Shown: one piece after another, positions 1-3,000 of the stretch | How the letters are laid out: the number at the start of each line of letters is the position of its first letter | How positions within the stretch are numbered: the stretch's first letter is position 1 | Origin: Podarcis tiliguerta | Lineage: Eukaryota | DNA: 64,000 bases | Assembly: GCA_965153285.1 (NCBI GenBank) | Contig: OZ229120.1 | Direction: 5' to 3' (one strand) | Program-made: the position numbers

Positions 1-3000
1 TACTGTATTTCATCTGGGAACCCAAAGCACAATTTTAGCATTTGTGTATAGGATTTCATATGGAAACACTCATATTTACGACTGACACATTTCCATGTGG
101 AACCGCGCTCTGCATAATGAGCAGATCGGCCCTGTTCAGGTACTGTCCAAACCTGCCCCATGTCAGTGGAAGTTGGGTATACACTGCCGGGAATAGAGGG
201 AAGTTTTTGTTCATGGAAATTTGTCTTAAAGATGGGATGCGGTTGATGAGTGCCAGCTACCTCCAGTTAACTTTCTAGTTGATTCCCCCCCCCCCATTGG
301 TCCTTAACCTCTGTACTTGCTGCATTATGTTCTGCTTTGCCACACAATTGACTCCTGCTCACTTTGGCATGCCCACATTCATACTTGCCCCTTTGCATTT
401 TAAGCATGACAGATGATATTCCATTCTATAATGGATTATAATCTGTAAATTGTTAGGTATGCAAATAGATCTGAAATGAGGGTGGGAAGTAAAGTAATAC
501 ATATATTTCAAAGCTGGGTGCTATTTGTTCAGTTCCACTTTGAGGGTTTCATCTAAAGTGAAAAAAGTTGCATATTCCTCATGTCTCTTAGTTTTGAGAC
601 GAAGCTGCAGGGAACAGGTAAAGGTAAAGGGACCCCTGACTGTTAGGTCCAGTCGCGGACGACTCTGGGGTTGCAGCGCTCGTCTTGCTTTACTGGCCAA
701 GGGAGCCAGCGTTTGTCCGCAGACAGCTTCCGCGTCATGTGGCCAGCATGACAAAACCGCTTCTGGCGAACCAGAGCAGCACACGGAAACGCCATTTACC
801 TTCCCGCCAGAGCGGTACCTATTTATCTACTTGCACTTGACGTGGTTTCAAACTGCTAGGCTAGCAGGAGCAGGGACCGAGCAACGGGAGCTCACCCAGT
901 CGCGGGGATTCAAACTGCTGACCTTCGGCTCGGCAAGCCCTAGGCTCTGTGGTCTAGATCACAGCGCAGGAGCAATAGCCTATTCTAATACATTTTTTTT
1001 TACTTCATAAGATTTATATATCACTTTGATTGTAGAATAAACCTCAAAGCAGTTTACATGTCCATTTGAATGTAAAATACTGTATTTCATCTGGGAACCC
1101 AAAGCACAATTTTAGCATTTGTGTATAGGATTTCATATGGAAACACTCATATTTACGACTGACACATTTCCATGTGGAACCGCGCTCTGCATAATGAGCA
1201 GATCGGCCCTGTTCAGGTACTGTCCAAACCTGCCCCATGTCAGTGGAAGTTGGGTATACACTGCCGGGAATAGAGGGAAGTTTTTGTTCATGGAAATTTG
1301 TCTTAAAGATGGGATGCGGTTGATGAGTGCCAGCTACCTCCAGTTAACTTTCTAGTTGATTCCCCCCCCCCATTGGTCCTTAACCTCTGTACTTGCTGCA
1401 TTATGTTCTGCTTTGCCACACAATTGACTCCTGCTCACTTTGGCATGCCCACATTCATACTTGCCCCTTTGCATTTTAAGCATGACAGATGATATTCCAT
1501 TCTATAATGGATTATAATCTGTAAATTGTTAGGTATGCAAATAGATCTGAAATGAGGGTGGGAAGTAAAGTAATACATATATTTCAAAGCTGGGTGCTAT
1601 TTGTTCAGTTCCACTTTGAGGGTTTCATCTAAAGTGAAAAAAGTTGCATATTCCTCATGTCTCTTAGTTTTGAGACGAAGCTGTGGACTCACATCCATTT
1701 ACTCTGCGTTCCCACAGCTGCCTTGGGAAGCTTTGTGGACATGGCATTAGCCACAATCCATATCATGTGTCTGTCTAATGGTTTCGTATGAAACACTTCC
1801 CCTTAAACCAGCTTTGATGCAAACTGAGGGAAAAAAAGAACTATCCAGCTGTATTTTAAGCAAGTAATATGTGCACAGCCTAAAGCTCTATACCTCTCAC
1901 CAGAAAATCTGCTCAGGAAAAGAAGCTGGGCAGGAAGGAGTCTCTCAGAGGTATGAGCTAGTATATAAGCATTTATATTTTGAATTAGAATTCATTTCTT
2001 CATGCTTCTCACATAGCTTTAGAACCCGTATTATATTACTTAATCTAGTAATAATAAAAGGGAATGTTTATTCTTGTGCAGGGGGAAGAATGCTGATTCA
2101 TAGTTGGTTGGTCAAATGATACTTGTATCATTAGAAAACAGAGTGGTGTTAAGAATCCCTTCCCTTCTGCTGGAGCCAAAGCACCTGCTCATTTGAAAGG
2201 AATAAACTAAACTACCAGACGTAATTGATTGTGTGAATCCTTTGTTTCTCTGCCCTTGTGGTTAATGCTCAGCATAATGTCAATGGACCTTGCATTCTTT
2301 ACTCTGCCCTGGTTTACCCCACCTTAGCATCCACAAAATAAAATGGGGAAAAATATTAAATAGGTATGATGCCAGTTGCTAAATGGCATTTATGGATAAT
2401 AATGGATTTAGAGAACAATTTCCATATGAGGTTTACACCACTACCAATCTCTTTCATTGACTTGAGAGAATGGAAAATAGATATAATAGTTATTTTTGCA
2501 AGCTAGGAACTCTCTTACAGCATGTGCACATAATATGTAGTTTTTAATAATAACCTCTGCCATATAGCATAGACTGGGTTTGGAGCGAAGACAACCAGAT
2601 GAAACTTGGCTTTGGCTGGAGCAGAATCAGCCAATTTCAAGGCAGATTAGTGTCAGTACAGTGTAACTGGCTAAGGGGGGAAATGAATATTTAAGGAGAA
2701 GCTGAACAGATCAAGAACAGGGAAATCTGCATGAGGTCACTTTTATACTGGACACAAAATATTTTATTTGGCTACTAACTTTTCTGATTCTTCCATAATT
2801 CTAAGCTGTCTTCATGTGCTGAAGACCTATCTGATTTGCTTTGAATTCTGACAGCATAGATGTGATCTGTGTCTTTTCTGACCACATAAGCAGCAAGCGA
2901 GTTTTCTTCCTAAGAGTCTTCTCAGATGATTATTTCAATTTGCTTGTCCGCTTTGTAGCTAAGACTCTTTTTTTAAAGAAGTGAGAGGTGGAGGCCCATT

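What the first reader, a model, noticed from the sequence alone, without database searches (positions are those of the whole stretch)
1..1683. Sauria SINE between two almost identical copies of at least 606 bp: possible giant target-site duplication
Seen: 1-607 equals 1078-1683 except C11 vs C10. Copy 1 ends, then an 8-bp filler (CAGGGAAC), then the 3' tail of a minus-strand SINE missing ~12 nt of its head. Known: Sauria SINEs share their 3' end with Bov-B (RTE clade) LINEs, and some RTE elements (C. elegans RTE-1) are reported to make unusually long direct repeats. The other Sauria SINE TSDs visible here are 12-13 bp. Inference: if 968-1077 is also present just upstream of the window, the duplicated unit is ~717 bp and brackets the SINE, implying SINE insertion with a very large duplication or SINE capture during break repair. 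This would be a route to duplicating regulatory DNA.
Basis: partly seen in the sequence, partly recalled or inferred. Interest (0 to 1): 0.7.

Follow-up and report, generated by a model that had tools for sequence, protein, structure and literature searches.

The report
Lizard SINE inside a young duplication
A 606-base stretch really does occur twice, almost letter for letter, with a lizard SINE between the copies, but the window cuts off the left copy, so an ordinary 1.08-kb tandem or assembly duplication of a block that already held the SINE is at least as likely as a giant insertion footprint.

Summary
Window 1-607 equals 1078-1683 with no substitutions and one homopolymer difference (C11 vs C10). 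It is the only near-identical repeat in the 64 kb. A minus-strand Sauria-type SINE (616-967) lies between the copies, with its 3' tail 8 nt from the end of copy 1.

The interpretation cannot be settled from this window, because copy 1 is cut by the window start. Two structures fit:
- (a) [B A] SINE [B A], a giant TSD of about 717 bp.
- (b) [SINE B A][SINE B A], a 1,076-bp tandem duplication, real or an assembly error, of a block that already held the SINE.

For a single event:
- The repeat ends at the SINE's 3' end.
- The SINE has no short TSD.
- The 8 nt may be a SINE tail extension.

Against a single event:
- The published Bov-B/Sauria nick signature is absent at 1683|1684.
- The SINE looks older than the duplication, with private CpG-type changes including a damaged B box, against 0 changes in 606 bp.

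My estimates: SINE predates the duplication about 0.55; one-event giant TSD or capture about 0.30. Kilobase-scale TSDs are already known for L1 and Dualen LINEs.

The parts
1..607 (.). Left copy (A) of the near-identical repeat, cut by the window start. Contains C11 at 286-296.
   Evidence: identical to 1078-1683 apart from one C in the homopolymer; no other copy in the window.
608..615 (-). 8-nt junction segment: CAGGGAAC on the + strand, GTTCCCTG in SINE orientation. It is either a filler, a remnant of flank, or a 3' extension of the SINE tail.
   Evidence: it shares TCCCT at the same offset with the sequence after the tail of the copy at 44744 (p about 0.04). It has no match to the SINE's own 5' flank (p 0.68). 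It is absent from the 1683|1684 junction.
616..967 (-). Sauria-type SINE. The 3' tail, (ACCTTT)2ACCT, is at the low-coordinate end. The head lacks 5-9 nt relative to the in-window copies.
   Evidence: nhmmer E 3e-123; 82.8% and 78.3% identity to two other copies. Tail type as in PMC6007223 Table 2.
968..1077 (.). 110-bp AT-rich spacer (B, GC 0.26) between the SINE head and the right copy. Whether it also precedes the left copy is the deciding unknown.
   Evidence: unique in the window; composition.
1078..1683 (.). Right copy (A') of the repeat. Contains C10 at 1363-1372.
1684..1713 (.). Unique right flank. Under the giant-TSD model, 1683|1684 is the first-strand nick site.
   Evidence: in SINE orientation it reads agtaaatggatgtgagtcca|CAGCTTCG. 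There is no T at P1 and no TTT near P-10.
26565..26916 (-). Comparator: Sauria SINE of another subfamily with a perfect 12-nt TSD (26917-26928 and 26553-26564).
   Evidence: (p about 0.001).
44744..45095 (+). Comparator: the copy closest to the focal one (82.8%). It has no detectable TSD and the lowest CpG count, and its tail is followed by ATCCCTCCTTTT.
41179..41243 (+). Comparator: 65-nt mini copy (about 14 nt of head joined to about 50 nt of tail) with a perfect 13-nt TSD (41166-41178 and 41244-41256).

Best explanation
The SINE was already resident at this locus. A block of about 1,076 bp (608-1683: 8 nt, the SINE, the 110-bp spacer B and at least 606 bp of A) is present twice head to tail, and the window start cuts the first unit between its SINE and its A part.

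On this reading the sequence just upstream of the window is B, then a second copy of the SINE. The duplication is extremely young: 0 substitutions in 606 bp. With the 0.0013/site/My rate used in PMC13295347, that is under roughly 2 My.

It arose either as a real tandem duplication or as an assembly duplication. A real one could come from replication slippage or end joining, with the purine-rich microsatellite-like SINE tail as a possible break or stall point. I put real at about three fifths of this case and assembly at about two fifths.

Shown: the repeat, its period, the sharp right boundary, and the SINE's private changes. Inferred: that the SINE predates the duplication, and what lies upstream.
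For: - The two 606-bp copies, which hold 7 CpGs, show 0 substitutions.
- The SINE differs at 18 aligned columns from both other full copies where those two agree: 14 transitions and 4 transversions.
- Of 46 candidate ancestral CpG sites, the SINE keeps CG at 23 and has TG or CA at 14. At three B-box-region sites it has the opposite decay product to the copy at 44744, so those decays are independent.
- In translated form, 5 of 5 other copies covering the B-box region read FEPPT or FEPAI, where the focal copy reads FKLLT (copies are the one at 44744 plus ENA-derived proteins). In DNA, the other two copies read GGTTCAAATCC and the focal copy reads AGTTTGAATCC. From general knowledge of Pol III B boxes (recalled), the C changed here is the invariant C56, so a freshly made copy is unlikely to carry it.
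- The published Sauria SINE target signature is T at the first TSD base and TTT about 10 nt upstream. It is absent at 1683|1684, where P1 is C and there is no TTT. Both in-window copies with a TSD have T at P1.
- An 8-nt offset between the repeat end and the canonical tail end is unexplained by standard target-primed insertion.
Against: - The unit boundary falls within 8 nt of the SINE's 3' end, and exactly at it if the 8 nt are a tail extension (TCCCT shared with the copy at 44744, p about 0.04). For a random breakpoint in a 1,076-bp unit this is a coincidence of a few percent or less.
- If the 8 nt were old flank, they should match the SINE's 5' flank as a TSD remnant. They do not (p 0.68, no short TSD).
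- With only two other full copies in the window and no genome-wide consensus, the SINE's 'private' changes could be diagnostic of an unsampled young subfamily. Its CpG observed/expected ratio (0.79) is still high against the window's 0.22.
- An assembly duplication with no N at the junction is unusual, and the window has no N.
Confidence: 0.55

Rival explanations
1. One event. Bov-B-type reverse transcription of a SINE RNA was primed at a break at 1683|1684, and the second strand was broken or primed about 717 bp away. Fill-in then duplicated B+A on both sides of the new SINE. This would be a giant TSD, or SINE cDNA capture at a repair or replication intermediate.
For: - The repeat ends 8 nt from, or exactly at, the intact 3' end of the SINE, which is where target-primed reverse transcription starts.
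- The SINE is 5'-truncated.
- It has no short TSD of its own, whereas 2 of the 3 other copies have perfect 12-13-nt TSDs.
- The same outcome is documented for other LINE machineries. L1 TSDs over 100 bp occur in up to 10% of HeLa events and in most events in NER-deficient cells (PMC5223499, passages). Tandem duplications of 1-10 kb with L1 at the junction are 'regarded as large TSDs' (bioRxiv 10.1101/2024.12.14.628481, passages). Dualen LINE insertions carry flanking duplications of median 900 bp (PMC9977147, passages).
- Published Sauria SINE TSD scans accepted only 10-49 nt, so they would have missed such cases.
Against: - The nick-site signature is absent.
- The SINE shows at least 5-8 private changes, several CpG-type and one in the B box, against 0 changes in 606 bp of repeat. 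The source RNA would therefore have to come from an already decayed copy.
- Extra nucleotides at the 3' junction are atypical unless they are tail sequence.
- RTE-clade and Sauria TSDs are reported as mostly 13 nt or less.
- B upstream of the window is unverified.
Confidence: 0.3
2. Assembly artefact. This is a sub-case of the best explanation's structure and is counted inside its 0.55. The locus has one [SINE B A] unit, and two overlapping contigs or haplotype versions were laid end to end, or a contig end carries a spurious partial copy.
For: - The copies differ only in homopolymer length, the typical consensus-error type.
- The truncated copy sits exactly at the window start, which would be expected if the window starts at a contig end (unknown to me).
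- Assemblers tend to break at interspersed-repeat boundaries (general knowledge).
Against: - There is no N anywhere in the window.
- The A|8 nt|SINE junction lies outside the shared repeat, so a repeat-induced mis-join does not create it.
- No other near-identical duplicate occurs in the 64 kb.
Confidence: 0.22
3. Complex tandem duplication with a templated insertion (template switching during replication repair). 608 to about 1000 would be copied as DNA from another SINE locus, so the 8 nt and part of B are the donor's flanks.
For: It would explain an old-looking SINE, the missing nick signature and the missing TSD.
Against: The inserted piece would have to begin within 8 nt of a SINE end by chance. 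No donor is available to test, and B has no other copy in the window.
Confidence: 0.08
4. The two copies are the LTRs of a small LTR or TRIM-like retroelement whose short internal region took a SINE.
For: Two identical direct repeats of at least 606 bp lie 470 bp apart.
Against: - The visible repeat end is ...GCTG, not ...CA.
- What follows copy 1 is CAGGGAAC plus the SINE tail, not a TGG-type primer-binding site.
- There is no purine tract before 1078.
- No other copy of A exists in the window, and none of the 150 longest ORFs has a Pfam match above cut-off.
Confidence: 0.02

Closest known systems
Large or 'giant' TSDs of L1 (cell-culture, NER-deficient and cancer insertions)
   Same: A direct duplication of hundreds to thousands of bp brackets a 5'-truncated retroelement whose 3' end abuts one copy. 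The proposed mechanism is a distant second-strand break or priming.
   Different: Here the driver would be Bov-B (RTE clade) acting on a SINE in a lizard germline. There is no poly(A), the expected endonuclease signature is missing, and the left half of the structure is unseen.
Dualen-4b LINE insertions in Chlamydomonas mutation-accumulation lines
   Same: De novo insertions flanked by duplications of median 900 bp, read as long TSDs. The size class matches the proposed 717 bp.
   Different: Dualen has two endonuclease domains, which the authors propose as the cause. Bov-B has only the AP-type endonuclease. Those events were seen arising; this one is inferred.
Canonical Sauria SINE / Bov-B insertion (Nishiyama & Ohshima 2018; Nakatsuka & Ohshima 2026)
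   Same: The element type and the (ACCTTT)n tail. Two in-window copies show the canonical 12-13-nt TSD starting with T.
   Different: The focal copy has no 10-13-nt TSD, no T at P1 and no TTT at P-10 for the candidate nick, and 8 extra nt after the tail.
Ordinary young tandem duplication (copy-number variant) or false assembly duplication
   Same: Head-to-tail copies with a constant period (1076/1077) and about 100% identity, differing only in a homopolymer.
   Different: The boundary coincides with the end of an interspersed repeat, which random breakpoints rarely do.

Membership tests
Sauria SINE (element at 616-967) | 3' tail shared with Bov-B, ending in (ACCTTT)n | tested here: met
   in SINE orientation the tail reads ...GGGGTCCCTTTACCTTTACCT. 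The tail motif is as given in PMC6007223 Table 2 and PMC13295347. No Bov-B reference sequence was available for direct comparison.
Sauria SINE (element at 616-967) | About 350-nt body homologous to other family copies | tested here: met
   82.8% and 78.3% identity over about 340-350 nt to two other in-window copies. That these are 'Sauria SINE' rests on the tail motif and on my recall of the family; no reference consensus was available.
Sauria SINE (element at 616-967) | tRNA-related head with Pol III A and B boxes | tested here: inconclusive
   ARAGORN finds no tRNA in the window. Rfam gives no tRNA match even at E up to 1. A B-box-like GGTTCAAATCC is present in the two other copies, but the focal copy reads AGTTTGAATCC.
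Sauria SINE (canonical insertion) | TSD of about 10-13 nt beginning with T, with TTT about 10 nt upstream | tested here: not met
   no short TSD (p about 0.99); the candidate nick at 1683|1684 has C at P1 and no TTT.
Retrotransposition-made giant TSD | The same target sequence directly flanks both ends of the element | not testable with these tools
   The 3' side is met to within 8 nt. On the 5' side, B must recur upstream of window base 1, which is outside the data.
Retrotransposition-made giant TSD | Element and duplication are the same age | tested here: inconclusive
   0 substitutions in 606 bp against 18 private differences and at least 5 CpG-type private changes in the SINE. Only 2 full comparison copies exist, so subfamily-diagnostic changes cannot be excluded. 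The evidence leans towards not met.
Retrotransposition-made giant TSD | The empty allele or orthologue has one target copy and no element | not testable with these tools
   No lizard genome collection was available. A genome contigs (prokaryote) scan with a SINE 19-mer gave 0 hits.
Simple tandem duplication | Whole unit, including the SINE, present twice at a constant period | not testable with these tools
   Only 607 of about 1,076 bp of the putative first unit are visible. The period over that part is 1077/1076.
LTR / TRIM retroelement | TG...CA repeat termini, primer-binding site after the 5' LTR, polypurine tract before the 3' LTR | tested here: not met
   the repeat ends ...GCTG, is followed by CAGGGAAC plus the SINE tail, and is preceded at 1078 by ...GAATGTAAAA.

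The most novel reading that the evidence does not exclude
A Bov-B-mobilised Sauria SINE inserted in a lizard germline with a target-site duplication of about 717 bp, some 55 times the family norm, probably primed at a non-canonical break. This would show that RTE-clade machinery, like L1 and Dualen, can make sub-kilobase to kilobase tandem duplications of host DNA. Genome-wide TSD surveys capped at 49 nt would have missed the class.
Probability: 0.3. Interest if true: 0.55.

Novelty: already known. Interest (0 to 1): 0.3.

Why it matters
If it is an ordinary tandem or assembly duplication, it matters only as a caution. A window edge can make a tandem unit with an internal SINE look like a SINE bracketed by a giant TSD.

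If the one-event reading is right, it would be a natural germline example of retroelement-coupled duplication by RTE-clade machinery. That extends a phenomenon documented for L1 and Dualen, and it would argue for re-scanning squamate genomes without an upper limit on TSD length. The region itself shows no coding potential, so any functional consequence, such as duplicated regulatory DNA, is speculative.

Tried and rejected
- **More SINE copies, to date the focal copy.**
  - An nhmmer profile over the window found only the 3 full copies and 1 mini copy.
  - A 19-mer scan of genome contigs (prokaryotic genomes, on the chance of host contamination) gave 0 hits.
  - A protein search with the stop-free antisense translation of the SINE gave 8 hits among 325 candidates, all ENA-sourced and unnamed. 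Identities were 42-86% over 25-100% of the query, and none was close to the focal copy over most of its length. They were used only to show that FKLLT is private.
- **Short TSD for the focal SINE:** none found.
- **The 8 nt as a TSD remnant:** no support.
- **LTR reading:** rejected.
- **Heterozygous SINE insertion at the A|R junction merged by the assembler:** rejected, because the SINE head is followed by B, which has no similarity to the right flank.
- **Unequal crossing-over between two SINEs:** rejected, because no SINE follows 1683.
- **SINE inserted into the junction of an older tandem duplication:** judged improbable. It needs an exact hit on the junction, and no TSD is present.
- **Gene context:** 150 of the 318 ORFs of at least 55 aa (the longest ones) were scanned against Pfam, and none had a match above cut-off. 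Rfam over the whole window gave 0 matches at gathering score.
- **RTE-1 long-repeat precedent:** Youngman 1996 is not held. Searches found no passage stating it.
- **Giant TSD for Sauria SINE or Bov-B in print:** searches listed no such report.
- **Not available or not seen:** paper supplements (TSD length tables and figures of PMC6007223 and PMC13295347) are closed and were not seen.

Full report
**What is there**

Window 1-607 (A) and 1078-1683 (A') are identical, apart from a C11 run (286-296) against a C10 run (1363-1372). There are no substitutions in 606 aligned bases. The right boundary is sharp: GAAGCTG|CAGGGAAC at 607|608 and GAAGCTG|TGGACTC at 1683|1684. The left boundary is invisible, because the match runs to the first base of the window.

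Between the copies lie three segments:
- an 8-nt segment (608-615);
- a minus-strand SINE (616-967), with its (ACCTTT)2ACCT tail towards copy 1;
- a 110-bp AT-rich spacer, B (968-1077).

A and B have no other copies in the window. Of the 11 repeat pairs in a self-comparison of the 64 kb, this is the only long one above 85% identity. The window has no N and a GC of 0.40. It has no Rfam match at gathering score and no tRNA. The 150 longest of 318 ORFs have no Pfam match above cut-off. The locus is therefore non-coding squamate-type DNA, not human.

**The SINE**

The SINE aligns with two full copies in the window, 44744-45095 (+, 82.8%) and 26565-26916 (-, 78.3%), and with a 65-nt mini copy at 41179-41243. 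I name the family from the tail motif that PMC6007223 (Table 2) and PMC13295347 (Results) give for the Sauria SINE, and from recall. No reference consensus was available.

The focal head starts 5-9 nt later than the other two heads. Two of the three other copies have perfect TSDs of 12 and 13 nt (p about 0.001 each). The focal copy and the one at 44744 have none.

**Two structures fit the visible sequence**

- (a) [B A] SINE [B A']: SINE arrival and duplication were one event, giving a TSD of about 717 bp.
- (b) [8 nt-SINE-B-A][8 nt-SINE-B-A']: a 1,076-bp tandem duplication of a block that already contained the SINE, with the window start falling between the first unit's SINE and its A part.

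Both predict that B lies immediately upstream of the window. A second SINE copy upstream of B can.

**Evidence for one event**

- The repeat ends at the SINE's intact 3' end, which is where target-primed reverse transcription begins.
- The element is 5'-truncated and has no short TSD.
- The 8 nt (GTTCCCTG in SINE orientation) share TCCCT at the same offset with the sequence after the tail of the related copy at 44744 (p about 0.04). They do not match the SINE's own 5' flank (p 0.68). They are therefore more likely a tail extension than a remnant of an old short TSD, which would make the junction exact.
- Retroelement-coupled duplications of this size are documented elsewhere:
  - L1 TSDs over 100 bp occur in up to 10% of HeLa events and in 57-91% of events in NER-deficient lines (PMC5223499, passages).
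  - L1-junction tandem duplications of 1-10 kb are 'regarded as large TSDs' (bioRxiv 10.1101/2024.12.14.628481, passages).
  - Dualen LINE insertions have flanking duplications of median 900 bp (PMC9977147, passages).

**Evidence against one event**

*Nick-site signature.* Sauria SINE TSDs start with T, about 10 nt downstream of TTT (abstract and one Results section of PMC6007223; Results and Discussion 4.1 of PMC13295347). The candidate nick at 1683|1684 reads agtaaatggatgtgagtcca|CAGCTTCG, with neither feature. Both in-window copies that have TSDs start with T, and one of the two has the T run.

*Age mismatch.* The repeat has 0 changes in 606 bp. By my arithmetic, the 95% upper bound is about 0.5% pairwise divergence, or roughly 2 My at the 0.0013/site/My rate quoted in PMC13295347. 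The SINE, by contrast, shows the following:
- It differs from both other full copies, where those two agree, at 18 columns: 14 transitions and 4 transversions.
- It has TG or CA at 14 of 46 candidate CpG sites and keeps CG at 23.
- At three sites around the B box it carries the opposite decay product to the copy at 44744, so those decays are independent.
- Its B box reads AGTTTGAATCC against GGTTCAAATCC in both other copies.
- In translation, 5 of 5 other copies covering that region read FEPPT or FEPAI against the focal FKLLT.

From general knowledge (recalled), the changed C is the invariant C56 of the Pol III B box, so a newly made copy should rarely carry it.

*Caveat.* With two comparison copies and eight short translated fragments from unnamed records, I cannot exclude that these changes mark an unsampled young subfamily. 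The SINE's CpG observed/expected ratio (0.79) is also still well above the window background of 0.22.

**Assembly artefact**

The only difference between the copies is a homopolymer length, and the truncated copy sits exactly at the window start. I do not know whether that is a contig start. Against an artefact: there is no N in the window, the A|8 nt|SINE junction lies outside the SINE and so is not a repeat-induced mis-join, and no other near-identical duplicate occurs in the window.

**Weighing**

The boundary coincidence favours one event. The missing nick signature and the old-looking SINE favour a resident SINE. The prior rates of both kinds of event are low and poorly known.

| Reading | My estimate |
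|---|---|
| SINE predates the duplication (total) | about 0.55 |
| – real tandem duplication | about 0.33 |
| – assembly duplication | about 0.22 |
| One-event giant TSD or cDNA capture | about 0.30 |
| Templated insertion | about 0.08 |
| Other, including LTR-like | the rest |

**Literature limits**

In the passages I read, RTE-clade TSDs were 10-12, 20, 10-19 and 8-20 bp, and 'not >13 bp' for most animal RTE-related elements.
- Published Sauria SINE TSD scans accepted only 10-49 nt (PMC13295347 section 2.2), so long TSDs were excluded by design.
- Searches listed no report of a giant TSD for Bov-B or Sauria SINEs.
- Supplements, which may hold the TSD length distributions, are closed and were not seen.

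**Verdict**

Even if it is true, it would be a new example of a mechanism already described for other LINE clades.

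Noticed in passing
window 41166-41256: A 65-nt 'mini' Sauria SINE (41179-41243). About 14 nt of head (GTGGGACGTGGGTG) are joined directly to about 50 nt of tail. The tail is 95.6% identical to that of the copy at 26565-26916. It is flanked by a perfect 13-nt TSD, TAAGTCAGCTATA. It looks like an internally deleted or template-jump copy that still retrotransposed.
   Followed up: partly
window 45093-45104: The SINE copy at 44744 continues after its (ACCTTT)-type tail with ATCCCTCCTTTT, ending in a T4 run (a possible Pol III terminator). 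The focal copy has GTTCCCTG at the same place. This may mark a subfamily with a 3' extension beyond (ACCTTT)n.
   Followed up: partly
window 57539-57862 (-): A 107-aa open frame (…LDYCNALYVGLPLK…LQLIQNAAARL…) that I recall as typical of the C-terminal part of a vertebrate LINE/retroelement ORF. It had only a sub-threshold Pfam hit. Not identified.
   Followed up: no
window 9166-9418 / 22330-22578; 17554-17767 / 63727-63931; 34787-35075 / 47005-47310: Three further pairs of interspersed repeats in inverted orientation, at 74-85% identity, belonging to unidentified families.
   Followed up: no
window 604-609: The A|8-nt junction creates the palindrome CTGCAG. The other copy reads CTGTGG, so it is not a shared restriction site. 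Probably chance.
   Followed up: no
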